From: an uncultured Pseudomonadales bacterium
Lineage (GTDB): Bacteria; Patescibacteriota; Microgenomatia; UBA1400; CG1-02-47-37
Direction of reading: 5' to 3'
DNA: 48,295 nt
Assembly: GCA_964361885.1 (NCBI GenBank)
Contig: CAYICL010000003.1
Location: 1-48,295 of the forward strand
Part shown: piece after piece, positions 1-42,786 of the stretch
Numbering within the stretch: position 1 is the stretch's first letter
How the letters are laid out: each line of letters begins with the position of its first letter
Made by a program: the position numbers and the translations under genes
The notes under the pieces: model-generated
The model's database searches: none
Told to the model about the DNA's origin: nothing
What the model saw: only the letters and a program-made list of their open reading frames with translations

Positions 1-1002
1 GAAAACGTCCTTTACATCCTCGATCTTTATGACAGCGTTGCCCGGATCGAACAGCGCTTTTTAAGCCCGACCGTGGACACCGAAAAACTGACCACCAACT
101 TTATCTCGCCTTTAGCCGCTGACGGCCAAATTACCATCAACGGTTCTGTTGAAATTCACGGTGACGCCAGTATTTCCGGAACTTTAACTGCCAATGAAAT
201 CAAATCTTCTACCACTGACAGCTTAAAAGAAAAAATCGCTGATATTATTGCCAGTCTGGATCAGCCTAAGGCCACACCGCCAAAGTCAGCCTCAATGTCA
301 GCCACTCCCGAGGTGTTTGCAGATTTCACCTCGGGAGTGAGTTCACCTTCTGCCTACTTGGATATTGACAGTCTTAATGCTGACTCCGGCTTTTTCTCCG
401 AATACTTGGCTGTCTTAGGTTCAGCCGCCATTACCAGCTTAAATGTTACCAATAGTTTAACCATTAATAACCAGTTGTTACTGACTGCCAACTCGCTTTC
501 AGGTCTGGATAATCAACTTTTCCTCCAACCTTCAGGCACCGGCTCGATCAACTTTCTGGCAGGCTTAATGACTTTGTCTGACGCCGGTCTGGTTACCATC
601 ACCGGTAACTTAACTGTCACCGGCACTTTAACCGCTACTTATATCGCTCCTCCATTAGAGCAAGATCTGCAAATTAACATTGCCAGCCAATCGGCTGTGG
701 CAATCTATAATCAAATATCCGGCTCTCAAATAGCTTCAATTGATGCTTCCGGTTCAGCCTCTTTTAACCGATTAAATCTAAAAGCCTCAGGCTCAACCTC
801 GATTCTGGCCGGCGAAAATCACGTGATGATTAACTCCGATGCTCTCACTCAAACTTCCCAAATTATCGTTACCTTTACTTCCGACTACAAACCGGCCTCA
901 AAATACTGGGTGGTTAAAGAACCTGCCAACCAACACTTTACTCTCTTTGTCAACTACCCGGTCAACTCCGACACTTTTCTCGACTGGTTGATTATTAACT
1001 AG
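1..1002 (+). CDS. Secreted/surface repeat protein, 5'-partial (frame 1 is open from the window edge; the listed GTG at 73 is probably internal)
   Basis: Frame 1 has no stop from nt 1. The protein is Thr/Ser/Gly/Asn-rich with repeats such as SGTLTANEI and TGNLTVTGTLTAT, which look beta-helix or fibre-like. It carries an in-frame 37-nt palindromic cassette at 303-339. Confidence 0.5.
   Translation, partial: ENVLYILDLYDSVARIEQRFLSPTVDTEKLTTNFISPLAADGQITINGSVEIHGDASISGTLTANEIKSSTTDSLKEKIADIIASLDQPKATPPKSASMSATPEVFADFTSGVSSPSAYLDIDSLNADSGFFSEYLAVLGSAAITSLNVTNSLTINNQLLLTANSLSGLDNQLFLQPSGTGSINFLAGLMTLSDAGLVTITGNLTVTGTLTATYIAPPLEQDLQINIASQSAVAIYNQISGSQIASIDASGSASFNRLNLKASGSTSILAGENHVMINSDALTQTSQIIVTFTSDYKPASKYWVVKEPANQHFTLFVNYPVNSDTFLDWLIIN
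303..339. repeat. Family-2 palindromic doublet CACTCCCGAGGTG-N11-CACCTCGGGAGTG (37 nt) in the surface-protein gene
   Basis: Read directly. Encodes TPEVFADFTSGV. Confidence 0.9.
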
Positions 1003-5991: not shown

Positions 5992-6331
5992 CCGCTTTCC
6001 GCCAACCTTCCCAGATTTTATCCCAGCTTCCTTTTGTATCCGGCATTAAATGTAAATGGGCATGGGCTACTTCATTGCCGATAGTCACGCTCACCACCAT
6101 TTCTTTGCCGGAAACAGTTTGCATTTTTTTAACGATTTTCTGGGCCACTTTGTATAAGTCACCAATACCTTCAAGCTCCCAAACCCAACGATAATGTTTT
6201 TTAGGAATTACTAAAGTATGGCCATCCACTATCTGGGAAATATCCAAAAAAGCCAACCAATCCTTATCCTCGTAAATTTTATAGCAGGGAATCTCTCCTT
6301 TAACAATCTTGCAAAAAATGCAACTGGTCAT
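5930..6331 (-). CDS. HIT (histidine triad) family nucleotide hydrolase
   Basis: CIFCKIVKGEIP...DGHTLVIPKKH...HAHLHLMP histidine-triad motif. Confidence 0.85.
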   Translation of the reverse strand: MTSCIFCKIVKGEIPCYKIYEDKDWLAFLDISQIVDGHTLVIPKKHYRWVWELEGIGDLYKVAQKIVKKMQTVSGKEMVVSVTIGNEVAHAHLHLMPDTKGSWDKIWEGWRKAASSRRLSAEEMQKIRKRFAV

Positions 6332-6339
6332 ATATAAAG

Positions 6340-6345
6340 TATAAT
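6340..6345 (+). promoter_or_regulatory. -10 box (TATAAT) 7 nt upstream of ATG 6353 (tsaD), suggesting a leaderless start
   Basis: Read directly in the 21-nt HIT/tsaD divergent spacer. Confidence 0.35.
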
Positions 6346-6352
6346 ACCATAT

Positions 6353-7473
6353 ATGAAATCGCCATTAATTTAGCCATCGACACTTCCTGCGACGAAACCT
6401 GCGCCAGTGTTTCTTTTGGCCGCCGGATTTTATCCAATGTCATCTCTTCCCAAATCAACATTCACCAAAAATATGGCGGCGTTGTCCCGCACCTGGCCAA
6501 ACGGGCCCATCAGGAAAAAATCGAGCCTGTCGTTAAAGAGGCAATAAAAAGGTCTGTCCTTAAAGGACTCAAGTTGCGTCAGCAACCTGAAAAGAATTCA
6601 AAAAGGACAGACCTTTCTGGAATAAGCGCCATCGCCGTCACCGTCGGTCCGGGCTTGGCTCCGGCCCTTGAAGTTGGTATTAACTTTGCCAAAAATCTTG
6701 CCCGCCGGCTCAAACTCCCGTTAATTGCTGTCAATCATATGGAAGGCCACCTCTTATCCTGCCTTGCCTTGCCTCACACTCCCGGAGTGAAATCTTCAAA
6801 CACTCCGGGAGTGAAATTCCCCGCTCTCGGCCTGCTCGTCTCCGGTGGTCACACCCAGTTGGTTTTAGTCAAATCCATTGGTCTATACCAACTTTTGGGT
6901 GAAACTTTGGATGATGCAGCCGGTGAAGCTTTGGATAAGCTTAGTAAAATGTTAAAACTCGGCTATCCCGGCGGCCCGATTATCGAACAACTAGCTAAAC
7001 AATCCGCCGGCTGGCGGACCAGCACCATCCCCTTACCCGTCCCTTTGCAACATTCCCAAGACTTAAACTTCTCTTTTTCCGGTTTAAAAACCGCGGCTCT
7101 TTATACCATTCAAAAAGTTTACAAAGGACGGACCTTTGTAAAAAAACAATTCACTTACGACTTATGCGCTGCTTTCCAAACTGCCATTGCTAAAAGCTTA
7201 ACTGTCAAACTCCAAAAAGCGATTGAGCAATACCAACCAAAAAGCATTTTGTTAGGCGGCGGGGTGTTTTCCAATTTATATTTCCGTCGCCAAATCCGCT
7301 CGGCTGTTAAACCATTTCAACTACCTCTTTATCTTCCCTATTCCAAAAAACTTTTTACTGACAATGCTGCCATGATTGCCGTTCCCGCTTACTTTAAATT
7401 TCTTAAAAAAGACTTTGTCAAAAACATTAAGACCCTGGACCGCCAACCAAACCTTAACTTTGATACAATATAG
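6353..7473 (+). CDS. tsaD: tRNA N6-adenosine threonylcarbamoyltransferase TsaD (Kae1/Gcp family), with apparent 1-nt frame problem at codon 2-3
   Basis: The conserved N-terminus LAIDTSCDETCASV...GGVVPHLAKRAH...AVTVGPGL lies in frame 1 upstream of the listed TTG at 6574. HMEGH metal site and SGGHTQL are present. The only nearby ATG (6353) is one base out of frame. Confidence 0.8.
6548..6616. repeat. 69-nt palindromic cassette inside tsaD (14-bp perfect inverted repeat AAAGGTCTGTCCTT / AAGGACAGACCTTT), REP-core variant
   Basis: Read directly. Inner hairpin GTTGC-GTCA-GCAAC at 6573-6586. Encodes KRSVLKGLKLRQQPEKNSKRTDL. Confidence 0.85.
6777..6813. repeat. Family-2 doublet variant CACTCCCGGAGTG-N11-CACTCCGGGAGTG in tsaD
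   Basis: Read directly. Encodes TPGVKSSNTPGV. The spacer is the reverse complement, 10 of 11 nt, of the 303-339 spacer. Confidence 0.85.
7117..7143. repeat. REP copy (GTTTACAAAGGACGGACCTTTGTAAA) inside tsaD, in frame (VYKGRTFVK)
   Basis: Direct reading. 10-bp stem TTTACAAAGG/CCTTTGTAAA around ACGGA. Confidence 0.9.
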
Positions 7474-14189: not shown

Positions 14190-15968
14190 CTACATCCGCT
14201 CCGGCGTGGCAATCCCCAGTAAACCCAAACCTTTTTTAATTATCTCGGCCGTTGCCTGAGTCAGCCACAGCCTGAACTCTTTTACCTCTTTTTCCGCCTT
14301 TAAAATCCGGTGCCGGTTGTAAAACCCATTATACTTTTGAGCCAAATCATATAAGAAATTGGCTACCAGATTTGGCGCCAACTCCGCCGCCGCCTGGCTG
14401 ACCACCTCTTCATACCGATACAACGTCCGCAGTAATAGGTCTTCCTCTTTTGAATAAGGTCCGACCTTGAGCGCCTTTGGCGCGTCCCGACGAATGTCGG
14501 GACTCAAGGTCGGACCTTTACTCAGCACGCTCTTGGCTCTGGCGTATGTATACTGCAGATACGGCCCTGAGTTACCCTCTAAACTAATCGATTCGTCAAA
14601 ATCAAAAGCCATGTCTTTGGTCCTGCCCACTTTTAAAATACTGTATTTAACTGCTCCCACTCCGATTTTTTCCGCTACTTCGTCAATGGAGGCTGTTTCC
14701 ACTTCGCTCTCACCTGACCGTTTCATAATTTCTTTAGTTTTTCCCACTGCTTGATCCAGCAAATCATCAATATATACCACCATACCTGTTCTTGAACTCA
14801 TCCTGCCCTTACCCTTAAGACTCATCCAGCCATAACTCACATGCTGACACTCTTTGATCTTCACTATCCCTAGCTGTTCGCAGACCGCAAACATCTGTTT
14901 TAAAGCTAATGACTGCTCCGGTCCGATCACCCAAAAAAGCTTATCCGGTTTAAAGGTCTCCTTTTTTAATTTGGTCAAAGCTAAATCCTGAGTAATATAC
15001 AAAGCCGTACCGTCTGCTTTAATCACCACCGTGTCCGGAATGCCGTACTTGGTTAAATCCGTGACGATTGCCCCTTCTTTTCCTTTTCTAAACACGCCTT
15101 TCTTCAAACCTAGCTCCACCAAGTCCTTCCCTTGCTGATAATGCTCATGCTCATGCCAAACCCTGTCCCATTTATTTCCCAGTCTCTTCAGCGTCAACTC
15201 CTGCCCCTGGTAGGAATATTCCAGTACCTTTGCCCATAAAGCCCGGTTCTTCTTGTCTCCGGCTTCCCAATCTATCACCATTTGCCTGACCGCCTTTTCT
15301 GTATCAGCTGTTTTACAATCCTCACTGGCCTTAACATATAACTCGTCTACAAATCTATCCGGCCTCATCTTGGCATTTTCCGGAGTCTGCCATTCATCCT
15401 GATGGTCATACCAATAATTAAGATCAATCATTTGCTTCTTTTCTTTGTGGCCAAACCTTAAATATCCCCACATTAATTTGGCAATGGCAATTCCCCGGTT
15501 ATTATCAACACAATCTCTGACCACCTGGCAACCTAAGGCTTCGAAAATATTCGCCAAGGCCATACCGATAATATTGTTGGTTAAATGTCCTAAATGCATG
15601 GCTTTATTAGGATTAGGTGACGTGTGTTCCACTAAATATTTTTTCCCCTGATAAGGTTTCTTCTCATCACCAATTAGCACTTGATTAATTTGATTGATAA
15701 GAACGTCACTTTTGATTGATATATTAATAAAACCTGCTCCGGCAACACTGATTTTTGAAGCTATTTTTTTCATGCTATCTTCGGCTTTTAACTTAGCTGC
15801 AATTGCTTCAGCTGTTTCTCGGGGTGACTGGCTTTTTAACGCCACATTGCAGCTATAATCCCCAAACGCCATGTTCTCCGGATGCTCCACAATAAACTTG
15901 GCTTTTTCTAATTTGAGTTCTTTTAAAATCTTCTCTATATTCTTATAAATCTGATGTGATAATTCCAT
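14190..15968 (-). CDS. argS: Arginine--tRNA ligase
   Basis: HTSPNPNKAMHLGHL (HIGH region), MSSRTG (KMSKS-like) and a C-terminal anticodon-binding domain ending ...ERM. Carries a 63-nt in-frame palindromic cassette at 14456-14518. Confidence 0.9.
   Translation of the reverse strand: MELSHQIYKNIEKILKELKLEKAKFIVEHPENMAFGDYSCNVALKSQSPRETAEAIAAKLKAEDSMKKIASKISVAGAGFINISIKSDVLINQINQVLIGDEKKPYQGKKYLVEHTSPNPNKAMHLGHLTNNIIGMALANIFEALGCQVVRDCVDNNRGIAIAKLMWGYLRFGHKEKKQMIDLNYWYDHQDEWQTPENAKMRPDRFVDELYVKASEDCKTADTEKAVRQMVIDWEAGDKKNRALWAKVLEYSYQGQELTLKRLGNKWDRVWHEHEHYQQGKDLVELGLKKGVFRKGKEGAIVTDLTKYGIPDTVVIKADGTALYITQDLALTKLKKETFKPDKLFWVIGPEQSLALKQMFAVCEQLGIVKIKECQHVSYGWMSLKGKGRMSSRTGMVVYIDDLLDQAVGKTKEIMKRSGESEVETASIDEVAEKIGVGAVKYSILKVGRTKDMAFDFDESISLEGNSGPYLQYTYARAKSVLSKGPTLSPDIRRDAPKALKVGPYSKEEDLLLRTLYRYEEVVSQAAAELAPNLVANFLYDLAQKYNGFYNRHRILKAEKEVKEFRLWLTQATAEIIKKGLGLLGIATPERM
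14456..14518. repeat. 63-nt nested palindromic cassette inside argS (15-bp perfect inverted repeat AAGGTCCGACCTTGA / TCAAGGTCGGACCTT enclosing two hairpins)
   Basis: Read directly. Inner hairpins GCGCC-TTT-GGCGC (14471-14483) and GTCCCGAC-GAAT-GTCGGGAC (14484-14503). Confidence 0.9.
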
Positions 15969-16753: not shown

Positions 16754-18157
16754 ATGAAAATCGTTATTGGCTACCCGCCGATTAAATCTTCAAAAGGCGT
16801 TCCGCTTTTATCCCAAAACCGCCAGTTCCAGTGGTTTTCTTCCCCTACTTACGTCTACCCGGTTATTCCTGCCTCAGCCGCCACTTTATTAAAAACCAAT
16901 GGTTATCAAGTCAGCTGGCTGGACGGTATTGCCGAAAACTGGAGCTATAACCAATGGTTTAACCAATTACAAGCCGAGTCGCCAGACTTGCTCTTTATCG
17001 AAACCAAAACTCCGGTGATCAAACAACACTGGCAGATCATCAAACATCTAAAATCTAAAATCCCTGATCTAAAAATCTGTTTGGCCGGTGACCACGTCAC
17101 TGCCTTACCCAAAGAATCGTCTAAAAACTGCCCGGTTGATTATATTGTTGTTGGCGGCAACTATGATTTATCTTTACTTTCTATAGCAAACAGTATCAAC
17201 AAAACTAAACAAAAAGTTTACCAAGGACGGACCTTTGTAAATTTACCATTCATCGATCGGCAGTTAACCAAATGGCGTCTCTATGCTTACAAAAACGGCA
17301 ACTTTAAATTTACCCCGGCTGCTTACACCATGGCCGGCCGCGACTGCTGGTGGCGTCAAAACGGCGGCTGTACTTTTTGCTCCTGGACCACCCTTTTCCC
17401 CAAATTTATGGTCCGCACTCCAAAAAATCTTTTAGACGAAATCGACCAGCTCATCAAATTAGGCATTAAAGAAGTCTTTGACGATACCGGAACTTTCATG
17501 ACCGGTAACTGGTTAAAACAGTTCTGCCAAGGCATGATCAAGCGTGGCTATAATAAAAAAATCGTTTTTGGCTGCAACATGCGCTTTGGAGTTTTAACTC
17601 AAAAAGACTATTACTTAATGGCCAAAGCCAATTTTAGATTCCTTCTTTTTGGTTTAGAATCAGCCAGTCAAACCACCCTCGACCGCCTAAACAAAGGCAT
17701 TAAAATCAATCAAGTTGAACCAGAATTAAAAATTATTAAATCTGCCGGCGGCCGACTTGAACCTCATGTTACTTGTATGGTCGGCTATCCCTGGGAAAGT
17801 TTAGCCGACGCTCAAAATACCGTTAACTTTACCAAAAATCTCTTTAAAAAAGGCTTAATCAGCTCACTCCAAGCCACCATTGTCATCCCCTATCCCGGCA
17901 CCAAACTCTTTGCCCAAGCCAAGAAAAACCATTGGCTCAAAACTTTGGACTGGAATAAATATGACATGCGCCAACCAATCCTTAAATCCCCTATCCCCGA
18001 TAAAAAACTGATGCAGCTCACCCGGAATATTTACCTTAGCTGTTTCACTCCTCAATTTATTTTCAAAAAATTGCTCTCGATCCGCTCTTTGGCTGACATT
18101 AAATTTTTATTTAGATCGGTCCGAAAATTCGTCGGCCAGCTGCTGGATTTTTCATGA
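16754..18157 (+). CDS. B12-binding-domain radical SAM protein
   Basis: N-terminal Rossmann-like B12-binding region; Cys cluster GRDCWWRQNGGCTFCSW; radical-SAM core (FGLESASQTTLDRLNKG). REP copy in frame at 17216-17241, in the inter-domain linker. Confidence 0.7.
   Translation: MKIVIGYPPIKSSKGVPLLSQNRQFQWFSSPTYVYPVIPASAATLLKTNGYQVSWLDGIAENWSYNQWFNQLQAESPDLLFIETKTPVIKQHWQIIKHLKSKIPDLKICLAGDHVTALPKESSKNCPVDYIVVGGNYDLSLLSIANSINKTKQKVYQGRTFVNLPFIDRQLTKWRLYAYKNGNFKFTPAAYTMAGRDCWWRQNGGCTFCSWTTLFPKFMVRTPKNLLDEIDQLIKLGIKEVFDDTGTFMTGNWLKQFCQGMIKRGYNKKIVFGCNMRFGVLTQKDYYLMAKANFRFLLFGLESASQTTLDRLNKGIKINQVEPELKIIKSAGGRLEPHVTCMVGYPWESLADAQNTVNFTKNLFKKGLISSLQATIVIPYPGTKLFAQAKKNHWLKTLDWNKYDMRQPILKSPIPDKKLMQLTRNIYLSCFTPQFIFKKLLSIRSLADIKFLFRSVRKFVGQLLDFS
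17216..17241. repeat. REP copy (GTTTACCAAGGACGGACCTTTGTAAA) inside the radical SAM gene, in frame (VYQGRTFVN)
   Basis: Direct reading. One mismatch to consensus. Confidence 0.9.
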
Positions 18158-23605: not shown

Positions 23606-23998
23606 ATGATTCAAATTAAAGTCGGCGGTAAACTGATTGCTTTAATTATCAAAGCTAAAACTCAACCCAAGATAAATCAGTTTATAACTGATCCTCACAA
23701 TCCTCTCCAGCTGGGCTTTCTCCGATTTTCTAAAAATCGCCAAGTAAAGCCCCACCAACACCGCGCTCTTGATAAAACCACTCACCAAAATCAGGAATTT
23801 ATTTATGTTGTCTCCGGCCAAATTCTGGCTGAATTTTTTTACAAAGGACGGACCTTTGTAAAACATCTGCTTAATCCCGGAGATTGCTTATTGCAACTAC
23901 AAGGCGGCCATGGGTTTACCATGCTTAAACCCACCAAGCTCATTACCATTAAGCAAGGTCCTTACTCCAGCCGCCAGCGCGAAAAAATCGAAATATAG
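23606..23998 (+). CDS. Cupin-fold protein (WbuC/sugar-modifying cupin-like)
   Basis: I place the start at ATG 23606 (MIQIKVGG) rather than the listed 23426, which would run through the divergent gene's start. HQH...QEFIYVVSG...GDCLL...GGHGF is a cupin pattern. REP copy in frame at 23838-23863. Confidence 0.5.
   Translation: MIQIKVGGKLIALIIKAKTQPKINQFITDPHNPLQLGFLRFSKNRQVKPHQHRALDKTTHQNQEFIYVVSGQILAEFFYKGRTFVKHLLNPGDCLLQLQGGHGFTMLKPTKLITIKQGPYSSRQREKIEI
23838..23863. repeat. REP copy inside the cupin gene, in frame (FYKGRTFVK)
   Basis: TTTACAAAGGACGGACCTTTGTAAAA read directly. Confidence 0.9.
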
Positions 23999-24966
23999 TC
24001 TTCGGCTATCTTATCCCAGCTAAACTGTTTGAGCCACTGCTCTGGTCGATACCGCTTTTTTGATAAAGCTAATTTTAATTTTTCCACGTACTCTTCTCCC
24101 CAAACATCTTTGACATAAATCCCATAATCACCCAATATTTCTCTTCTTAACTCATCATCCGTCGCTACTACCGGCAAACCTGAAGCCAGCGCCTCTAAAT
24201 AGACAATGCCAAACGCTTCGGTCGAATCGCTGACTAAAGTAAACACATCCGCTGCTCGATAGACCGCCGGCATCGCTTCATGTTTAAATTTTTTCCCTCC
24301 TCCGGCCCACAACAAATTTACCGCTCCGAAGCCCTGCCTTGCCGGCAGGCAGGCTTGGCGAAGGGCGGCTACCGCCCTTCTAGTCGCTTCCACCCGTTTA
24401 TATTTATCTTCCGAAGCAACGCATAAAATTATTGGCCCCTTCAATTTTAGGTCCAATTTCCCACCCTCAGGCTTAAACCGTTGTAAATTTACTCCGTTAG
24501 GAATCACTTCAATCCTGACTCCCCGGCCGTAAAACTTTTTCGCCCAGCGCCGATTTCTTTCGCTTAAAGCCACAAACACATCCGGCCGCATCAGTAAATT
24601 CCACCCGTCGCACCAACCTAAACCCGCCTGTCCGCTAATCACCAGTTTGGCACCGGTTTGCCAGCAAAACAAACGGCATAATAAACTCTGCCAGCCGCCG
24701 TTAAATGGCATGATTATATCCGGTCGCCACGGCTTTAATTTTTCCAGCGCCTGCCGCGTTTCCCACCGCATTGTCCGGTGATACTTGTCAATCATCAAAG
24801 TCTTTAACCAAGGACGGACCTTTGTAAAAGATTGCCAGTCGACTGAATTGACACTAATTACTTTTACCTGGTGCTGCTTTTGCCAGCGCCGACTCAGTTC
24901 TTTCACTACCGTCTCTACCCCCCGATCAATTCGGCCACTGGTAAACGATAAAACCGCAATTTTCAT
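23962..24966 (-). CDS. GT4 (GT-B fold) glycosyltransferase
   Basis: MKIAVLSFTSGRIDRGVETVV...SDSTEAFGIVYLEALASGLPVVATDD (E-x7-E type motif). Confidence 0.8.
   Translation of the reverse strand: MKIAVLSFTSGRIDRGVETVVKELSRRWQKQHQVKVISVNSVDWQSFTKVRPWLKTLMIDKYHRTMRWETRQALEKLKPWRPDIIMPFNGGWQSLLCRLFCWQTGAKLVISGQAGLGWCDGWNLLMRPDVFVALSERNRRWAKKFYGRGVRIEVIPNGVNLQRFKPEGGKLDLKLKGPIILCVASEDKYKRVEATRRAVAALRQACLPARQGFGAVNLLWAGGGKKFKHEAMPAVYRAADVFTLVSDSTEAFGIVYLEALASGLPVVATDDELRREILGDYGIYVKDVWGEEYVEKLKLALSKKRYRPEQWLKQFSWDKIAEDYISIFSRWRLE
24803..24829. repeat. Degenerate REP copy inside the GT4 gene (minus strand reads FTKVRPWLK)
   Basis: TTTAACCAAGGACGGACCTTTGTAAAA. The left arm is altered relative to consensus. 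Confidence 0.8.
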
Positions 24967-34683: not shown

Positions 34684-35546
34684 TGAAGTTCTCCGTTATC
34701 ATCCCTTGTAAAACTAAGGCCGACCTCTGCCCCGAACTGATTCCGGCTTTAAAATCTCAAACTTTCAAAGACTTTGAAACTATCATTGTTATTGACCGTC
34801 TTTGCGCAGGCTTGCCGGCTGCAAAACGCGATTGGGGGGCAAACCGCAGTCATGGCCAAATTTTGGCTTTTATTGACTCTGATGCCTACCCTGACCAACA
34901 CTGGCTGGAAAACGCCAATGCTCACTTTAAATCTCCTGTTACCGCGGCTGTTTGCGGTCCTGGCCTAACTCCTCCCACTGACTCTCAAACCCAACAGCTT
35001 TCCGGTTTAGTTTGGTCGACCTGGCTCGGTGCCGGCGGCGCCGGTACTTTTAGAAACCTAAAAGCTAAACCCCGTCTGGTTGATGACTATCCCAGTTTTA
35101 ACCTTCTGGTTTTAAAAAAAGACTTTAACCAAGTTAACGGTTTTAACACCCGTTACTGGCCCGGCGAAGACACCAAGCTCTGCCATGACTTAGTCTATAT
35201 CTTAAAAAAACAAATTCTTTATCATCCCCAAATCATGGTTTATCACCACCGCCGGCCGGTTTTTATCTCTCATCTTAAACAAATCTCCGCTTACGGTCTT
35301 CACCGCGGGTTTTTTGTTAAAATCCTACCCAAAACTTCTTTAAAACCCGGCTATTTTATTCCCCTGCTTTTTCTCTTTGGTTTAATCATCTTGCCTTCTT
35401 TAACTCTTCCTCCTTACCTGCTTCTCCTTATCATTACCGGCCTGATTCACCGCTCTTTACTTTTAATCCCGGCTATCTTTCTGACTCACCTGACTTACGC
35501 CGTGATGTTTTTAAAAGGCTTACTCACTCCCTACCTCAAAAACTAA
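34683..35546 (+). CDS. Family 2 glycosyltransferase with C-terminal TM segments
   Basis: MKFSVIIPCKTKADLCPELIPALKSQTF...FIDSDAYP...GEDTKLC. Its stop codon abuts the left REP copy. Confidence 0.7.
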   Translation: MKFSVIIPCKTKADLCPELIPALKSQTFKDFETIIVIDRLCAGLPAAKRDWGANRSHGQILAFIDSDAYPDQHWLENANAHFKSPVTAAVCGPGLTPPTDSQTQQLSGLVWSTWLGAGGAGTFRNLKAKPRLVDDYPSFNLLVLKKDFNQVNGFNTRYWPGEDTKLCHDLVYILKKQILYHPQIMVYHHRRPVFISHLKQISAYGLHRGFFVKILPKTSLKPGYFIPLLFLFGLIILPSLTLPPYLLLLIITGLIHRSLLLIPAIFLTHLTYAVMFLKGLLTPYLKN

Positions 35547-36291
35547 GTTTACAAAGGACGGACCCTTGTAAACTATGTATAATACAAATATGCCTGCCAA
35601 AAATATTATCAAAACCTATATTCAAAACGGTTATTATCACCTTTATAATCGCGGAGTCAACAAACGAAACATCTTTAAAAATCAGCAAGATTACGGTGTT
35701 TTTCTTGGCTACTTGAAACAATATCTCTCCCCAAATGATAAAAATCCTTGTTTAAGAAACATCACTGTTAAAAACAAAGTTTATAAAATTCTGACTCCCC
35801 CATGTAAAAACTATCATCATGATATCAAACTCCTGGCTTACTGTTTAATGCCTAATCATTTTCATTTATTAATTAAACAATTTTCCGAAAGAGGCATTGC
35901 CTCACTGATGAAATCTCTCGGCACCCGCTACACCATGTACTTTAACAAACGTTACCAACGCACCGGTCCTTTATTCCAAAGCCGTTATAAGGCCGTTTTA
36001 ATTGATAACGAAAACCAGCTGCTTCATCTCTCCCGCTATATTCATCTTAATCCCCTACCCAAAAACCCAACTCAACCCTCTAGTTATCCTAATTATCTTG
36101 GTCTAAACCATGCCACTTGGATTCAGCCCCAAGAAATCCTTACTTTCTTTAAAACCGCCCGCAAAACCAATCTGAATGATATTAGTTCATATCAAAGTTT
36201 TATTGAAGACTATTCTGAACCGCCTAAAACATTTTTAGAAAACCTTACCCTTGATTAGATTGTTTACAAAGGACGGACCCTTGTAAACTAT
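35547..36291 (+). mobile_element. REP/RAYT unit: IS200-like Y1 (HUH) transposase gene bracketed by two identical 27-nt (30-nt with flank) palindromic REP copies
   Basis: GTTTACAAAGGACGGACCCTTGTAAACTAT occurs at 35547-35576 and 36262-36291 in direct orientation. The unit fills the gap between two convergent gene ends exactly. Confidence 0.8.
35575..36258 (+). CDS. REP-associated tyrosine transposase (RAYT; IS200/IS605 TnpA-like Y1 HUH enzyme)
   Basis: YHLYNRGVNKRNIF, HUH motif in LMPNHFHLLIK, FQSRYKAVLI and the catalytic-Tyr region LSRYIHLNP. The start may be ATG 35590 (MPAKN), which lies 6 nt after a TATAAT. Confidence 0.8.
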   Translation: MYNTNMPAKNIIKTYIQNGYYHLYNRGVNKRNIFKNQQDYGVFLGYLKQYLSPNDKNPCLRNITVKNKVYKILTPPCKNYHHDIKLLAYCLMPNHFHLLIKQFSERGIASLMKSLGTRYTMYFNKRYQRTGPLFQSRYKAVLIDNENQLLHLSRYIHLNPLPKNPTQPSSYPNYLGLNHATWIQPQEILTFFKTARKTNLNDISSYQSFIEDYSEPPKTFLENLTLD

Positions 36292-39814: not shown

Positions 39815-40390
39815 TTAATAAACCGCTACCTTTTCCTTAATCGCTTCATACACATTACTTTTCACCGCTTTTTTTGTCAGCAACTCCTCCACTGACCCAT
39901 ACGGCCGGTTTGAAATAATCTTTTCTGCCGTGGCCGGCCCCACTCCCCAAAGCGTATCCAGCTCGGCGCTTGACGCGGTATTGATGTTTACAAAGGACGG
40001 ACCTTTGTAAACATTTTGAGAAGGTCCGTCCTTATTGGATTCTTCTTGACTCGGAATATATACCTTCTGGCCGTCAACAATTTTGGCAGCCAAATTTAAG
40101 TTTTTATTCAACCATTCCCTGTCTGCTTTTTCTCCTAAGCCGCCGGCGACGACTAAGGCATCATTCATTCTGGCTCCAAGGCTTAACTTATACAATCCGG
40201 GCTTCATCACTGCTCCGGCTACATCCACATACACATACACCTCTTTTTCCTGCTCTACGATCTCTACCCCTCTATCAGTCGCTTTATTGCTGATCAATAT
40301 TGCTGAAAACACTCCGACAATCAATAACAGTATTCCCGCCAATCCCACGGTCAACCAATATGGTTTGGCTTTCAATTCCTTTATCCTCAT
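39815..40390 (-). CDS. comEA: ComEA DNA receptor (SLBB domain plus helix-hairpin-helix)
   Basis: VAGAVMKPGLYKLSLGARMNDALVVAGG (SLBB) and INTASSAELDTLWGVGPATAEKIISNRPYGSVEEL (HhH). The REP doublet sits in the inter-domain linker. Confidence 0.8.
   Translation of the reverse strand: MRIKELKAKPYWLTVGLAGILLLIVGVFSAILISNKATDRGVEIVEQEKEVYVYVDVAGAVMKPGLYKLSLGARMNDALVVAGGLGEKADREWLNKNLNLAAKIVDGQKVYIPSQEESNKDGPSQNVYKGPSFVNINTASSAELDTLWGVGPATAEKIISNRPYGSVEELLTKKAVKSNVYEAIKEKVAVY
39986..40033. repeat. REP doublet (full REP 39986-40012 plus inverted core AAGGTCCGTCCTT at 40021-40033) inside comEA
   Basis: Read directly. Encodes NKDGPSQNVYKGPSFVN on the minus strand. Confidence 0.9.
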
Positions 40391-42786
40391 ACCACCAGAT
40401 TCACCAGTTTTCCCGGCACAAACACCTCTTTGACTACTTTTTTCCCTGCCAAATAAACCTTCACCTTTTCGCTTAACTTAGCCATTGCCAGGACTTTTTC
40501 CTTATCACCGGCTTGTTCCCGATCCAACACCAGCCTGTCTCTAAGCTTAGCATTCACTTGAATTACCACTGTTACCGTCTCGCCCTTGGCAAACTCTTTA
40601 TCATATTCCGGCCAAGCTTGCTGATGCACCGAAAACTTACCTCCAAGCTTCTGCCACAACTCCTCGCTTATATACGGTGCCATCGGCGCCAATAGCAAAA
40701 TCAAAGTCTTAACTGCCTCTGAAAACACCTCCGAGGTGTGAACTTCTTTCACCTCGGAGGTGAATAATCTCTCCAACTCATTAACATACTCCATTAAAGC
40801 CGCAATCCCCACATTAAACCTAAACTCTTTCATTGCCTGAGTGACTCGCTTAACTGTCTGGTGTTGCAACCGACGCAAGCCTTCAAGGTCCGTCCTTGTA
40901 GGCTTATTGTTTACAAAGGACGGACCTTTGTAAACCAACTTCCACACCCGGTTTAGAAACCGCCTCATTCCTTTCATGCCTGTGTCTTGAAAATCACCGC
41001 CCTGATCATACGGCCCGATAAACATTAGATACATCCGCAAAGCATCCACTCCGTACTTATCTATATACTCATCCGGATTGACAATATTGCCTTTACTCTT
41101 ACTCATCTTGGCTCCGTCTTTAATAATCAAGCCGTGCCCATACAAAAACGGAAACGGCTCATCTCCCAAACTCTTAGGAATATAGCCAAAATCCTGCAAA
41201 GCCATCCAGATAAATCGGGAATACATCAGGTGCAGCACAGCATGTTCTGCTCCGCCGATATAAGCGTCAACCGGCAGCCACTTCTTGGTAACTTCCGGAT
41301 CAAAAGGCAAATTAGACACTCCCGAGGTGGCAGATTTTTTCACCTCGGGAGTGTGATTGACCGACGGATAGCGCAGGAAATACCACGAACTGTCCAAAAA
41401 TGTGTCGCTCACATCTGTTTCCCGTTTCGCTTTGCCTTTGCATGAAGGGCATTTGGTATATAACCAATCATCTCCGGCCTTCTGAAGCGGCGACTTGCCG
41501 TCTCCAGTCGGTTTAAAATCTTTGACGTACGGCAGTTTCACCGGCAGATTCTTTTCTTTTTCTGCTTGCCATTTACATTTCTCGCAATAAATCATCGGAA
41601 TCGGCGGCCCCCAGTACCGCTGCCGGCTGATACACCAATCCCTTAACCGGTAATTTATCTTTTTCCTCACTCCGCCTAATTTTGCCAACTGTTTAAAAAC
41701 TTCATCTTGATTTTTCAAAACATCTACTACCAATAACTTATGTTTCTTGGCAAAAGCCATATCTCTCTCGTCATGAGCCGGCACCCCCATCACCGCTCCG
41801 GTACCATAATCTTTCAGCACAAAATCGGCTATCCAAATCGGCATTAACTTGCCTGTTAATGGATGAGTCACTTTGTAACCAGTATCCACTCCCGTTTTAC
41901 TTTTCTCTCCTTCTTTTCTCTGTTGCTCAGTTTTATCTAAAGCTTTTTTTACATAATTCATCACTGCTTTATTTGTGGTCAAACTGCTCACCAAAGGATG
42001 TTCCGGGGCTAAACATAAAAAAGTGGCTCCAAAAATCGTGTCCAGTCTGGTAGTAAAGGTGGTAACTTTTTTATCCATGCCTTTAACTTGCCAGTCAACT
42101 TCGACTCCCTTGCTCCGGCCGATCCAGTTTCTCTGAACCGTCTTGATCTTCTCCGGCCAATCAATCTTGTCAATATTGTCTAAAAGTCTTTGAGCATACT
42201 TAGTTATCTTAAAAAACCACTGGAAAGTTTCTTTTTTTTCCGTCACGGTTTTACACCGCTCGCATAATCCGGCTTCTACCTGTTCATCGGCCAGCACCGT
42301 TTTGCATGACGGACACCAGTTAACCAAAGATTTCTTCCTATAAGCCAATCCTTTCTCAAACATCTTAATAAACAACCACTGGGTCCATTTATAGTATTCC
42401 GGATCATAAGTTTCTAACCGGTTCTCCCAGGAAAACCGGTTGCCGATCCGTGATAATTGTTCGTAAAAATGTTTCTCGCTAATCTTGGCTTGATCTGCCG
42501 GATGCTTAGCGATCTGAATCGCATAGTTTTCCGAGTGAATCCCAAACCCGTCCAACCCGATCGGCTCAAACACCTGATAGCCATTCATCGCCTTGTACCT
42601 GCCGTAAAAGTCTGCCCCGGTAAAAGCATACATATTGCCCACATGTAAACCCTCTGCCGACGGATACGGAAACATCATCAGGTTGTAAAATTTCTTCTTG
42701 GGGTTTTTCAAATCCACTTGATATATCTTGGCTTTCTGCCACTTTTTTTCCCACTTGGTCTCAATAGTTTTGGAATTATAATCCAT
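40387..42786 (-). CDS. leuS: Leucine--tRNA ligase
   Basis: PYPSAEGLHVGNMYAF (HIGH), CxxC zinc motifs, KMSKSKGN and RFLNRVWKLV. Three in-frame palindromic cassettes. Confidence 0.9.
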   Translation of the reverse strand: MDYNSKTIETKWEKKWQKAKIYQVDLKNPKKKFYNLMMFPYPSAEGLHVGNMYAFTGADFYGRYKAMNGYQVFEPIGLDGFGIHSENYAIQIAKHPADQAKISEKHFYEQLSRIGNRFSWENRLETYDPEYYKWTQWLFIKMFEKGLAYRKKSLVNWCPSCKTVLADEQVEAGLCERCKTVTEKKETFQWFFKITKYAQRLLDNIDKIDWPEKIKTVQRNWIGRSKGVEVDWQVKGMDKKVTTFTTRLDTIFGATFLCLAPEHPLVSSLTTNKAVMNYVKKALDKTEQQRKEGEKSKTGVDTGYKVTHPLTGKLMPIWIADFVLKDYGTGAVMGVPAHDERDMAFAKKHKLLVVDVLKNQDEVFKQLAKLGGVRKKINYRLRDWCISRQRYWGPPIPMIYCEKCKWQAEKEKNLPVKLPYVKDFKPTGDGKSPLQKAGDDWLYTKCPSCKGKAKRETDVSDTFLDSSWYFLRYPSVNHTPEVKKSATSGVSNLPFDPEVTKKWLPVDAYIGGAEHAVLHLMYSRFIWMALQDFGYIPKSLGDEPFPFLYGHGLIIKDGAKMSKSKGNIVNPDEYIDKYGVDALRMYLMFIGPYDQGGDFQDTGMKGMRRFLNRVWKLVYKGPSFVNNKPTRTDLEGLRRLQHQTVKRVTQAMKEFRFNVGIAALMEYVNELERLFTSEVKEVHTSEVFSEAVKTLILLLAPMAPYISEELWQKLGGKFSVHQQAWPEYDKEFAKGETVTVVIQVNAKLRDRLVLDREQAGDKEKVLAMAKLSEKVKVYLAGKKVVKEVFVPGKLVNLVV
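40726..40762. repeat. Family-2 doublet CACCTCCGAGGTG-N11-CACCTCGGAGGTG in leuS
   Basis: Read directly. Encodes TSEVKEVHTSEV on the minus strand. Confidence 0.85.
40885..40935. repeat. REP doublet (inverted core AAGGTCCGTCCTT at 40885-40897 plus full REP 40909-40935) inside leuS
   Basis: Read directly. Encodes VYKGPSFVNNKPTRTDL on the minus strand. Confidence 0.9.
41317..41353. repeat. Family-2 doublet CACTCCCGAGGTG-N11-CACCTCGGGAGTG in leuS
   Basis: Read directly. The arms are identical to the 303-339 copy. Encodes TPEVKKSATSGV on the minus strand. Confidence 0.9.

What the first reader, a model, noticed from the sequence alone, without database searches (positions are those of the whole stretch)
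35547..36291. RAYT (IS200-like Y1 transposase) gene bracketed by identical 27-30 nt palindromes: a complete REP/RAYT locus
The 35575-36258 ORF has the HUH motif (NHFHLL) and the catalytic-Tyr region (SRYIHLNP) of IS200/IS605 TnpA and REP-associated tyrosine transposases. It is flanked by GTTTACAAAGGACGGACCCTTGTAAACTAT at 35547-35576 and 36262-36291. Both flanking copies carry an ACCCTT variant, which puts one A-C mismatch in the stem. The six dispersed copies lack this change and have ACCTTT. The cassette fills the space between two convergent stop codons exactly: the stop ending at 35546 and the minus-strand stop at 36288-36290. The two flanks are in direct orientation. REP/RAYT systems are described mainly in Proteobacteria, so a compact one in what looks like a streamlined CPR-like genome deserves attention.
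Basis: partly seen in the sequence, partly recalled or inferred. Interest (0 to 1): 0.8.

Follow-up and report, generated by a model that had tools for sequence, protein, structure and literature searches.

The report
REP/RAYT system writing hairpins into genes
A candidate-phyla-radiation bacterium with almost no intergenic DNA carries a domesticated hairpin-cutting transposase flanked by its own 27-base palindrome, and every other copy of that palindrome sits in frame inside working genes such as tRNA synthetases.

Summary

**The protein.** ORF 35575-36258 is a Y1/HUH protein:
- It matches Pfam PF01797 at 50.6 bits.
- Its motifs are NHFH, FQ, YIHLNP and SS.
- Its best structural match is the E. 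coli RAYT-REP complex 4ER8.

**The flanks.** Identical 30-mers bracket the ORF. The same hairpin recurs in the window, in other contigs and in relatives.

- All six dispersed copies lie in frame inside genes: TsaD, a radical-SAM protein, a cupin-like gene, a glycosyltransferase, ComEA and LeuRS. Only 2.4% of the window is intergenic.
- The gene keeps the same GT2/TPR position in three related lineages. A fourth lineage has that position without the gene, holding one solo palindrome.
- All ten loci examined for this Microgenomates Y1 family have hairpins with an AAGG-N5-CCTT core next to the gene.
- The ComEA linker hairpin keeps its pairing through compensatory changes. It is swapped between close relatives yet identical in a distant one.

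**Verdict.** This is a new variant of a known kind, a non-canonical REPtron. It has no GTAG foot, its motifs resemble subclass 2.1, and its copies are predominantly intragenic. In-frame REPs are already known. Activity and mechanism are inferred.

The parts
35547..35576 (+). Left flanking REP-like palindrome. It is a 27-nt hairpin (11-bp stem, loop ACGGA, A-C mismatch variant) plus TAT. It fills the 28-nt gap between the GT2 stop and the Y1 start codon.
35575..36258 (+). Y1/HUH tyrosine transposase-like gene (RAYT-like, 227 aa). Motifs: HUH = N94-H95-F96-H97, F134-Q135, catalytic Y155 in YIHLNP, S169-S170 in the tail.
36262..36291 (+). Right flanking REP-like palindrome, identical to the left 30-mer and in direct orientation. 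Its last base overlaps the stop codon of the minus-strand TPR gene.
7117..7143 (+). Dispersed copy in frame in the TsaD-like gene, encoding VYKGRTFVK. It lies in a region gapped in alignments to solved TsaD structures.
17216..17242 (+). Dispersed copy in frame in a B12-binding radical-SAM gene, encoding VYQGRTFVN. It lies between the two Pfam domains.
23837..23863 (+). Dispersed copy in frame in a small cupin-like gene, encoding FYKGRTFVK. The orthologous copy in L003 is identical.
24803..24829 (+). Degenerate dispersed copy in a GT4/GT1 glycosyltransferase gene on the minus strand. It is read in the frame that would normally give TAA. The arm carrying that stop is altered (SFTKVRPWLK).
39986..40012 (+). 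Dispersed copy in frame in the ComEA linker (minus-strand gene), encoding VYKGPSFVN. It forms a REPIN-like pair with 40021-40033.
40021..40033 (-). 13-nt inverted partner AAGGTCCGTCCTT (KDGP). It is the left arm of the ComEA linker long hairpin.
40885..40897 (-). 13-nt inverted partner in LeuRS (TRTDL). The same RTDL peptide occurs at this site in LeuRS orthologs P0125 and P0135.
40909..40935 (+). Dispersed copy in frame in LeuRS (minus-strand gene), encoding VYKGPSFVN. It is absent from the L003 ortholog and from 22 other orthologs.
6549..6615 (.). Related inverted pair AAGGTCTGTCCTT ... AAGGACAGACCTT in the N-terminal part of the TsaD-like gene (KRSVL ... KRTDL).
14456..14518 (.). Related inverted pair AAGGTCCGACCTT ... 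AAGGTCGGACCTT with two inner hairpins. It is 63 nt, in frame in ArgRS.

Best explanation
This is a REPtron: a low-copy, vertically kept class-2 Y1/HUH enzyme (RAYT-like) together with its cognate hairpin repeats.

**Proposed mechanism.**
1. The enzyme recognises a hairpin whose top is AAGG-N5-CCTT. Here that is the 23-27-nt palindrome TTACAAAGG-ACGGA-CCTTTGTAA. Recognition happens on single-stranded DNA, most plausibly at the replication fork.
2. It cuts next to the hairpin using the HUH-bound metal and Tyr155, forming a 5'-phosphotyrosine link.
3. It rejoins strands. Hairpin units, either singlets or inverted REPIN-like pairs, are thereby excised, inserted or exchanged.

**Why the copies are in genes.** 97.6% of this genome segment is coding, so nearly every landing place is a gene. 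Copies survive only under three conditions:
- their length is a multiple of three (27 nt = 9 codons);
- they are read in one of the two stop-free frames of each orientation (VYKG[RP][TS]FVN or LQR[TS][DV]LCK);
- they sit in linkers or variable loops.

At gene ends, the third frame's TAA serves as the stop codon.

**Shown versus inferred.**
- Shown: the enzyme family and fold, the flanking and dispersed hairpins, the in-frame insertions, synteny, presence or absence of the gene, and covariation and turnover of the hairpins.
- Inferred: catalysis, single-strand and replication coupling, and that this enzyme is what moves the hairpins.
For: **Enzyme.**
- PF01797 matches at E=2.6e-13. The RAYT model scores 49.8 bits against 15.1 for the IS200 model.
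- The AF2 model has pLDDT 85.6. Its best PDB match is 4er8_A, the E. coli RAYT bound to a REP hairpin, at E=8e-6. IS200/IS605 TnpAs score about 1e-3.
- N94, H95, H97, Y155, S169 and S170 are invariant in 36 homologs.
- The motifs NHFH / FQ / YIHLNP / SS match class 2 (Y---NP) in Table 1 of PMC6006769.

**Cognate repeats.**
- The same hairpin flanks the gene and recurs six more times in 48 kb.
- Homologous Y1 genes in ten loci are bracketed by hairpins sharing the AAGG-N5-CCTT core. The loci are the window, L001, L003, L008, L010, L025, L027, L029, L030 and L031. Loops and lower stems are lineage-specific.

**Low copy number and vertical descent.**
- The gene lies next to the orthologous GT2 gene in the window, L003 (81% identity) and L010. 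The TPR gene is on its other side in the window and L003.
- L036 has the GT2/TPR junction without the gene, with one solo palindrome.

**Insertions.**
- The LeuRS copy is absent from 23 orthologs.
- The TsaD copy lies in a gapped region.
- The ComEA and radical-SAM copies lie between domains.
- The Y1 genes of L001 and L025 carry copies in frame in their own coding sequence.
- Across 24 loci, no internal copy is read in the TAA frame.

**Maintenance and turnover.**
- Orthologous copies are 29/29 and 25/25 identical where the flanks are 67-68% identical.
- The ComEA arms keep 4.5 of 5 core pairs against 2.56 cross-lineage. Only 5 of 20000 permutations reach this.
- Close relatives are 90-94% identical outside the cassette but 55-65% identical inside it.
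Against: - No biochemical evidence exists. Nothing here shows that this protein cuts or moves these hairpins.
- The protein is below NCBIfam's RAYT cut-off (49.8 against 80 bits).
- It has no sequence-level hit to 4ER8.
- The hairpins lack the GT[AG]G foot that defines canonical REPs.
- The closest motif class, subclass 2.1, was reported to have no REPs.
- The whole genome is not available, so single-copy status and genome-wide repeat number are extrapolations.
- Orientation against GC skew is 8 of 8 in the window but only 11 against 4 over independent loci. Replication coupling is therefore not established.
- Other hairpin families in the window have no visible enzyme.
Confidence: 0.8

Rival explanations
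1. An autonomous IS200/IS605-type insertion sequence. On this reading the 745-bp unit (hairpin, tnpA, hairpin) moves as a whole. The dispersed 27-mers would be solo ends or miniature derivatives of it.
For: - The two flanks are in direct orientation and 30/30 identical, like left and right end hairpins on one strand.
- The unit is about the size of IS200.
- It is present in some Beckwithbacteria and absent at the same junction in L036.
- The Y1 protein (81%) is more conserved than its neighbours LeuRS (72%) and ComEA (64%) between the window and L003. Recent transfer could explain that.
Against: - The Y motif is Y---NP, not Y---Q, and the protein has 227 aa with a conserved tail.
- The IS200 equivalog scores 15.1 against a cut-off of 55.
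- There is one copy in 48 kb, and it lies next to the same GT2 gene in three diverged lineages.
- The flanks are inverted in L003 and L025.
- The empty site keeps one palindrome. Repeat-repeat deletion predicts this; precise IS excision does not.
Confidence: 0.08
2. The palindromes are host-selected sequence signals that do not depend on the Y1 enzyme. Candidates are DNA-uptake sequences for the ComEA/ComEC machinery, a binding site for a dimeric protein, or an mRNA structure. On this reading their presence at the Y1 gene is incidental.
For: - Copies are conserved far above their coding flanks, and pairing is kept by covariation.
- The sequence is a near-perfect double-stranded palindrome that a dimer could bind.
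- Uptake sequences are also frequent inside genes (own knowledge).
Against: - In ten loci from different lineages, the Y1 gene is bracketed by that lineage's own hairpin variant. An unrelated signal does not predict this.
- Copies are lineage-specific insertions at different sites in orthologs.
- Y1 genes themselves are invaded.
- The cassette sequence is swapped between close relatives. That is unlike a fixed recognition signal.
Confidence: 0.07
3. The hairpins arise locally, by template switching or hairpin-templated repair during replication, rather than by transposition. The Y1 gene would be a decayed relic.
For: - Both arms of the ComEA hairpin change in concert at one fixed site.
- Insertion hot spots recur at the same loops of LeuRS.
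Against: - Identical 23-27-nt sequences occur in unrelated genes.
- The same peptide insert sits at different positions in two LeuRS orthologs.
- The Y1 catalytic residues are invariant in 36 homologs, so the gene is not a relic.
Confidence: 0.03

Closest known systems
E. coli REPtron: TnpA-REP (RAYT, YafM) with REP/BIME sequences (PDB 4ER8; Nunvar 2010, Ton-Hoang 2012, Messing 2012)
   Same: - A Y1/HUH enzyme with the Y---NP motif, and the best structural match.
- The gene is bracketed by the hairpin repeat that is dispersed in the genome.
- Low copy number and a conserved position.
- Inverted doublets exist.
   Different: - No GT[AG]G foot.
- The stem is AT-rich with an AAGG/CCTT top.
- The protein is 60 residues longer, with a conserved SS-containing tail.
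- It falls below the NCBIfam cut-off.
- The repeats are intragenic, not extragenic.
- The host is a CPR bacterium.
TnpA-Y1 subclass 2.1 of Quentin et al. 2018 (Bertels group 1; the TIRYTs of Di Nocera 2013)
   Same: The motif signature NH[YF]H / FQ / Y[IV]HLNP / SS tail and a length of about 230-240 aa.
   Different: - That subclass was reported to have no REP-like flanks, or else long unrelated inverted repeats. It was also reported to carry a C-terminal HTH.
- Here every locus examined has cognate hairpins, and no HTH domain is detected.
- Assignment is by motifs only. Their HMMs were not available.
Subclass 2.4 RAYTs (Cyanobacteria, Bacteroidetes) and the intragenic REPs of Di Nocera 2013
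   Same: - REPs inserted in frame inside the RAYT gene itself and inside unrelated genes, including tRNA synthetases.
- REP ends supplying stop codons.
   Different: - There the intragenic copies are a minority of a mostly extragenic family.
- Here all six copies away from the Y1 gene are intragenic, and the motif signature differs (WQ, YIxNNP in 2.4).
Rickettsia palindromic elements (RPE; Ogata et al. 2000)
   Same: Palindromic repeats inserted in frame in functional, often essential genes of a reduced genome, and tolerated as extra peptide segments.
   Different: - RPEs are about 100-150 bp and CGTC-tagged. No cognate transposase gene is known (own knowledge; PMC3733652).
- Here the units are 13-63 nt and a cognate Y1 gene is flanked by them.
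REPINs of Pseudomonas fluorescens SBW25 (Bertels and Rainey)
   Same: - Inverted pairs of short palindromes forming a long hairpin.
- Long persistence together with a single-copy RAYT.
   Different: - The pairs here lie in coding sequence.
- Their arms are 13 nt.
- Their cores are exchanged between close relatives at a fixed site.

Membership tests
RAYT / TnpA-REP REPtron (class 2 TnpA-Y1) | Y1_Tnp (HUH) domain with HUH motif and catalytic tyrosine | tested here: met
   - PF01797 scores 50.6 bits against a cut-off of 23.
- The motifs are NHFH 94-97 and Y155, invariant in 36 homologs.
- The fold matches 4er8_A at E=8e-6.
RAYT / TnpA-REP REPtron (class 2 TnpA-Y1) | Class 2 tyrosine motif Y---NP, as opposed to Y---Q of IS200 | tested here: met
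   YIHLNP at 155-160. The criterion comes from PMC6006769 Table 1.
RAYT / TnpA-REP REPtron (class 2 TnpA-Y1) | Gene flanked by hairpin repeats that recur elsewhere in the genome | tested here: met
   - There are two flanks plus six dispersed copies in the window.
- Further copies lie on other contigs.
- Nine other loci of homologs show the same arrangement.
RAYT / TnpA-REP REPtron (class 2 TnpA-Y1) | Canonical REP: GT[AG]G tetranucleotide at the 5' foot of the hairpin | tested here: not met
   - The conserved unit is TTACAAAGGACGGACCTTTGTAA, with covarying outer pairs and no GTAG or GTGG.
- Subclasses 2.6 and 3 also lack the foot.
RAYT / TnpA-REP REPtron (class 2 TnpA-Y1) | Repeats are extragenic | tested here: not met
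   All six copies away from the Y1 gene, and all 12 AAGG-N5-CCTT cores, lie inside ORFs.
RAYT / TnpA-REP REPtron (class 2 TnpA-Y1) | Single or low copy, vertically inherited at a conserved position | tested here: inconclusive
   - There is one copy in 48 kb.
- It lies next to the same GT2 gene in the window, L003 and L010, with the TPR gene on the other side in the window and L003.
- It is absent at that junction in L036.
- The whole genome was not available. Some Curtissbacteria carry two paralogs.
RAYT / TnpA-REP REPtron (class 2 TnpA-Y1) | NCBIfam NF047646 REP_Tyr_transpos equivalog score at or above cut-off | tested here: not met
   49.8 bits against a cut-off of 80. This is a relative, not an equivalog of the proteobacterial enzymes.
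RAYT / TnpA-REP REPtron (class 2 TnpA-Y1) | Sequence-specific binding and cleavage of the cognate hairpin as single-stranded DNA | not testable with these tools
   Needs purified protein and oligonucleotides.
IS200/IS605 insertion sequence (TnpA-IS200, subclass 1.1) | Y---Q motif, core-only protein of about 150 aa, IS200 equivalog score | tested here: not met
   - The motif is YIHLNP.
- The protein has 227 aa.
- NF033573 scores 15.1 bits against a cut-off of 55.
IS200/IS605 insertion sequence (TnpA-IS200, subclass 1.1) | Several near-identical copies per genome at unrelated positions | tested here: inconclusive
   - Only one copy is seen, and it is syntenic in relatives.
- The whole genome was not available.
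TnpA-Y1 subclass 2.1 (Quentin 2018) / Bertels group 1 | Motifs NH[YF]H, FQ, Y[IV]HLNP, SS in the proximal tail; median length 238 aa | tested here: met
   - NHFH, FQ, YIHLNP, SS169-170 and 227 aa.
- This is a comparison by eye with the published table, not with the authors' HMMs.
TnpA-Y1 subclass 2.1 (Quentin 2018) / Bertels group 1 | C-terminal HTH-like domain (Bac_DnaA_C, HTH_23, HTH_28) and no REP flanks | tested here: not met
   - Only PF01797 is detected at E<=1.
- Hairpin flanks are present in every locus examined.
Rickettsia-type coding palindromes (RPE) | Palindromic repeat inserted in frame in functional ORFs | tested here: met
Rickettsia-type coding palindromes (RPE) | Unit of about 100-150 bp, CGTC-tagged | tested here: not met
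   Units are 13-63 nt with an AAGG/CCTT core.

The most novel reading that the evidence does not exclude
The hairpins may be more than tolerated junk. On this reading they form a maintained, exchangeable set of single-strand hairpin cassettes that the Y1 enzyme rewrites at fixed sites inside essential genes.

That would explain two observations together. The same cassette is identical in a distant relative, yet it is replaced by a different, still self-complementary cassette in relatives whose host gene is 90-94% identical.

Two consequences would follow. The system would have a host-level role, for example in fork or single-strand DNA processing in a genome replicated with extreme strand asymmetry, or in mRNA-level control. 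It would also diversify surface loops of housekeeping proteins as a by-product.
Probability: 0.2. Interest if true: 0.8.

Novelty: new variant of a known kind. Interest (0 to 1): 0.62.

Why it matters
What RAYTs do for their hosts, and how REP and REPIN populations persist, are open questions. So far they have been studied almost only in Proteobacteria, where the repeats sit between genes.

Here the same kind of system operates in a CPR bacterium with 2.4% intergenic DNA. Four things follow.
- Every repeat has a readable cost and context, because it is a peptide inserted in a known protein.
- Orthologous sites can be followed across lineages.
- Presence or absence of the enzyme gene can be compared at one locus.
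- Turnover is visible as cassette swaps inside a gene that is otherwise 90-94% identical.

The work also has practical value.
- It defines a hairpin type (AAGG-N5-CCTT) for a very large Y1 family. More than 8000 database hits are annotated only as 'transposase' or 'hypothetical'.
- The motif class of that family was thought to lack REPs.
- It warns that short in-frame inserts in CPR housekeeping proteins can be mobile DNA rather than lineage-specific protein features.

Tried and rejected
- **Sequence search against PDB.** The single protein gave no hit. A 25-sequence profile gave only weak ISDra2 hits at E=0.018. Classification therefore rests on the fold search and on motifs.
- **Genome-collection scan.** The scan for the palindrome returned only two contigs. 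The window's own genome is apparently not among the species representatives, so no genome-wide census was possible.
- **Orientation against GC skew.** The count is 8 of 8 in the window but 11 against 4 over independent loci (one-sided p about 0.06 by my own binomial count). I do not claim replication-strand bias.
- **Active strand from G-T against A-C mismatches.** The window flanks and the L003 left flank give opposite answers. I dropped this.
- **Perfect-hairpin census.** Stems of 8 or more gave 14 against 1-9 in shuffles. Apart from this family there is no general excess. The other families were found only through repeat search.
- **Rfam.** Only two tRNAs were found, and no RNA family matches the hairpins.
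- **First structure job.** I repeated it with alignment A8.
- **Literature.** I found no paper linking RAYT or REP with Patescibacteria or CPR. The Minerva preprint and the Nanobdellota preprint mention REP or RAYT only in unrelated contexts.
- **GT2 C-terminal tail as a decayed older palindrome.** By my own hand alignment it is 12/30 identical to the L010 tail. This is too weak to claim.
Full report
**Observation.**

- GTTTACAAAGGACGGACCCTTGTAAACTAT occurs at 35547-35576 and at 36262-36291, in direct orientation.
- ORF 35575-36258 (+, 227 aa) lies between the two copies.
- The upstream glycosyltransferase gene stops at 35544-35546.
- The convergent TPR gene has its stop at 36288-36290.
- A degenerate pattern search finds the palindrome at seven sites, against 0.00 expected in shuffles.
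- A core search adds an eighth, more degenerate site at 24803.
- The two flanks alone carry ACCCTT. As single-stranded DNA this leaves one A-C mismatch (-5.5 against -9.5 kcal/mol).
- Contigs assembled independently from a groundwater metagenome (L005, L012, L021) contain the same sequences. The feature is therefore real.

**The protein.**

*Sequence evidence.*
- The ORF matches Pfam Y1_Tnp (PF01797) at 50.6 bits against a cut-off of 23.
- Against NCBIfam it scores 49.8 bits on the REP-associated tyrosine transposase model, below that model's equivalog cut-off of 80. It scores only 15.1 bits on the IS200 model.

*Structural evidence.*
- Sequence searches of the PDB are uninformative.
- An AlphaFold2 model built on 36 homologs has pLDDT 85.6.
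- The best Foldseek match of that model is 4er8_A, the E. coli RAYT bound to a REP hairpin (E=8e-6). IS200/IS605 transposases come next at about 1e-3.

*Conserved residues and class.*
- In 36 homologs, N94, H95 and H97 (HUH), Y155, S169 and S170 are invariant.
- The signature NHFH / FQ / YIHLNP / SS at 227 aa matches class 2 of the TnpA-Y1 classification of Quentin et al. (Y---NP, against Y---Q in IS200).
- Within class 2 it fits the second variant listed for subclass 2.1, which is Bertels group 1.
- That assignment is by motif only.

**Organism and family size.**
- The protein search returned 7997 hits among 8000 scored candidates.
- The best named hits come from Ca. Beckwithbacteria, Levybacteria, Curtissbacteria, Woesebacteria and Shapirobacteria.
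- The nearest LeuRS and ComEA proteins are also from Beckwithbacteria.

**Where the dispersed copies are.**

| Position | Host gene | Peptide |
|---|---|---|
| 7117 | TsaD-like | VYKGRTFVK |
| 17216 | B12-binding radical-SAM protein | VYQGRTFVN |
| 23837 | small cupin-like protein | FYKGRTFVK |
| 24803 | GT4/GT1 glycosyltransferase | SFTKVRPWLK |
| 39986 | ComEA | VYKGPSFVN |
| 40909 | LeuRS | VYKGPSFVN |

- The host genes are intact. LeuRS aligns end to end with Thermus LeuRS, TsaD aligns with solved TsaD structures, and the others have their full Pfam domains.
- The inserts sit in tolerant places:
  - between the SLBB and HHH domains of ComEA;
  - between the B12 and radical-SAM domains;
  - in a gapped region of the TsaD alignments;
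  - in a variable stretch of LeuRS.
- The LeuRS copy is an insertion. It is absent from the L003 ortholog and from all 23 orthologs aligned.
- The palindrome is open in two of three frames in each orientation. Over the window and 24 other loci, internal copies use only those two frames.
- The copy at 24803 is read in the third frame, and the arm that would give TAA is altered.
- At gene ends, the third frame's TAA is used as the stop codon of the neighbouring glycosyltransferase (L003, L010, L036).
- The reason for this distribution is simple: only 2.4% of the window is intergenic. The two spacers around the Y1 gene, 28 and 29 nt, consist almost entirely of the palindromes.

**Is the enzyme linked to the hairpins?**

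I examined the flanks of homologous Y1 genes in nine other loci. In every one, the gene is bracketed closely by hairpins that share an AAGG-N5-CCTT top. The loops and lower stems are specific to each lineage.

| Locus | Lineage or source | Flanking hairpin |
|---|---|---|
| L001, L003, L008, L010 | relatives of the window | same core as the window |
| L025 | Woesebacteria-like, 864-kb contig | ACAAAGG-ATACT-CCTTTGT |
| L027 | Curtissbacteria | TAAGG-AGACT-CCTT |
| L029 | Shapirobacteria | GTTAAGG-TGGCA-CCTTAAC |
| L030 | unnamed MAG | GTAAGG-TTCAT-CCTTAC |
| L031 | Curtissbacteria | CAAGG-N5-CCTTG |

- The flanks are direct in the window, L001, L008 and L010, and inverted in L003 and L025.
- In L001 and L025 the Y1 gene carries copies of its own hairpin in frame in its coding sequence. 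This feature was published for subclass 2.4 RAYTs.
- In the window, AAGGNNNNNCCTT occurs 12 times against 1.12 expected. All 12 are in ORFs.
- An information profile over 41 distinct copies defines the conserved unit as TTACAAAGGACGGACCTTTGTAA. The outer two or three pairs covary between lineages.
- There is no GT[AG]G foot.

**Domesticated or mobile?**
- The Y1 gene lies next to the orthologous GT2 glycosyltransferase gene in the window, in the Beckwithbacteria MAG L003 (81% protein identity) and in L010. In the window and L003, the TPR gene lies on its other side.
- A fourth Beckwithbacteria MAG, L036, has the same convergent gene pair with no Y1 gene. A single palindrome, TTACAAGGGTTCAACCCTTGTAA, touches both genes and supplies the end of the glycosyltransferase.
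- One palindrome left at the junction is what recombination between two directly repeated flanks would produce. Gain next to a pre-existing palindrome cannot be excluded.
- Together with the class 2 motifs, this favours a low-copy, mostly vertically kept gene over an insertion sequence.
- The 30/30 identity of the two window flanks, including a private variant, and the inverted left flank in L003 show that the flanks themselves turn over.

**Hairpin pairs and their evolution.**

*Pairs in the window.*
- Next to the ComEA and LeuRS copies lie 13-nt partners AAGGTCCGTCCTT in inverted orientation.
- Inverted pairs also occur in TsaD (6549-6615) and ArgRS (14456-14518).
- Full inverted doublets occur in L001, L007, L011 and L023.

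*The ComEA linker across eight orthologs.*
- The linker contains two AAGG-N5-CCTT units that pair with each other.
- All five core positions show compensatory double changes.
- Arms from the same gene pair at 4.5 of 5 core positions, against 2.56 for arms from different lineages. Only 5 of 20000 permutations reach the observed value.
- The sequences are related, so this number is not a strict probability.

*Two facts that point to replacement rather than slow in-place evolution.*
- Between the window and the distant L003, the palindromes are identical over 29 and 25 nt while the surrounding coding DNA is 67-68% identical.
- Between the window and two close relatives (L032, L033), the gene is 90-94% identical outside the cassette and 55-65% inside it. 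The cores differ but remain complementary (Fisher p = 3.6e-8).

Cassette identity is thus decoupled from host-gene relatedness. I take this as evidence for active exchange or homogenisation of hairpin units at fixed sites. The agent is inferred, not shown.

**How it most likely works.**

By analogy with E. coli TnpA-REP and IS608/ISDra2 TnpA (PMC3333891, PMC3479197 and PMC5027513, known to me and listed), I propose this sequence:
1. The enzyme binds the hairpin on single-stranded DNA.
2. It cleaves beside the hairpin using Tyr155 and the HUH-bound metal.
3. It performs strand transfer.

Selection then filters the landing sites, leaving in-frame, stop-free, loop-located copies.

The window has a uniform GC skew of -0.2 to -0.3 regardless of gene strand. 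This trait is published for Beckwithbacteria and Collierbacteria and was interpreted as largely unidirectional replication (PMC7143001). All eight full copies in the window have the same orientation. Over independent loci the count is only 11 against 4, so I leave replication coupling as an inference.

**Comparison with what is known.**
- REPtrons, REPINs and in-frame REPs are all described. Examples are intragenic REPs in tRNA synthetase and repair genes (Di Nocera 2013), REPs inside subclass 2.4 RAYT genes (Quentin 2018) and Rickettsia RPEs.
- Four things are different here:
  - the host is a CPR bacterium;
  - the hairpin type has an AAGG-N5-CCTT top and no GTAG foot;
  - the association is with a Y1 family whose motifs match subclass 2.1, reported as REP-free;
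  - the repeats are essentially all intragenic.
- Eight searches of the paper library found no report of RAYT or REP in Patescibacteria.

I therefore rate it a new variant of a known kind, of moderate to high interest.

**Limits.**
- There is no biochemistry, no complete genome, no test against the published subclass HMMs, and no expression data.
- The other hairpin families in the window have no identified enzyme.
- The link between this Y1 gene and cassette turnover is circumstantial.

Noticed in passing
window 300-339, 6774-6813, 40723-40762, 41314-41353: A second, unrelated hairpin family, CACTCCCGAGGTG-N11-CACCTCGGGAGTG, folds at -14.9 kcal/mol. It is read in frame in a 309-aa ORF (SATPEVFADFTSGV), in TsaD (PHTPGVKSSNTPGV) and twice in LeuRS (TSEVKEVHTSEV, HTPEVKKSATSGV). 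Orthologs carry TPGV...TPGV or nothing at the same sites. No cognate enzyme is seen in the window. A similar element lies just upstream of the Y1 gene in L025.
   Followed up: partly
window 14456-14518: A 63-nt (21-codon) element in frame in ArgRS. Two AAGG-N5-CCTT units enclose two inner hairpins. It is predicted to form a three-way junction of -32.2 kcal/mol (z = -9.4).
   Followed up: partly
window 6301-6574: The TsaD-like gene has no ATG, GTG or TTG between the in-frame stop at 6301-6303 and the conserved N-terminal DTSCDET motif. It probably starts at a non-canonical codon (ATT, ATA or ATC).
   Followed up: no
window 1-48295: GC skew is -0.20 to -0.31 in every 4-kb block, regardless of gene strand (31 genes on the minus strand, 20 on the plus strand). 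This extreme strand asymmetry is published for Beckwithbacteria and Collierbacteria, where it was read as largely unidirectional replication (PMC7143001).
   Followed up: partly
window 73-48208: Only 1171 of 48136 nt (2.4%) are intergenic, and many genes overlap by a few bases. The two spacers around the Y1 gene consist almost entirely of the palindromes.
   Followed up: yes
L036 12540-12650: A Beckwithbacteria MAG (JAZDKF010000016.1) has the same convergent GT2/TPR pair without the Y1 gene. A single palindrome, TTACAAGGGTTCAACCCTTGTAA, touches the TPR stop and encodes the last residues and the stop of GT2 (VTRVEPL*).
   Followed up: yes
L001 1729-2400 and L025 10175-10195: The Y1 genes of other lineages carry their own cognate palindrome in frame (NYKGRTFVR and NNKGPSFVI in L001; VYKGLSFVD in L025). 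One insertion site coincides with a beta-hairpin (residues 60-73) in the model of the window protein, so that hairpin may descend from an old insertion.
   Followed up: partly
proteins P0123 and P0138 (alignment A5, columns 504-521 and 674-686): Two LeuRS orthologs carry the same inserted peptide, TPESKNIPLRS, at two different positions. This points to a further mobile in-frame element family in Beckwithbacteria.
   Followed up: no
L032, L033 against window 39986-40033: ComEA genes that are 90-94% identical to the window's outside the linker carry different hairpin cassettes in the linker. The cores are TCGCA/AGCGA and ACAGA/ACTGT, against ACGGA/TCCGT in the window.
   Followed up: yes
L002 (CAZDQA010000031.1): This contig is labelled 'uncultured Pseudomonadales' but carries the Beckwithbacteria-type palindrome. 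It has the same length (8823 nt) as the contig of LeuRS homolog P0125. It is probably a mis-binned CPR contig.
   Followed up: no
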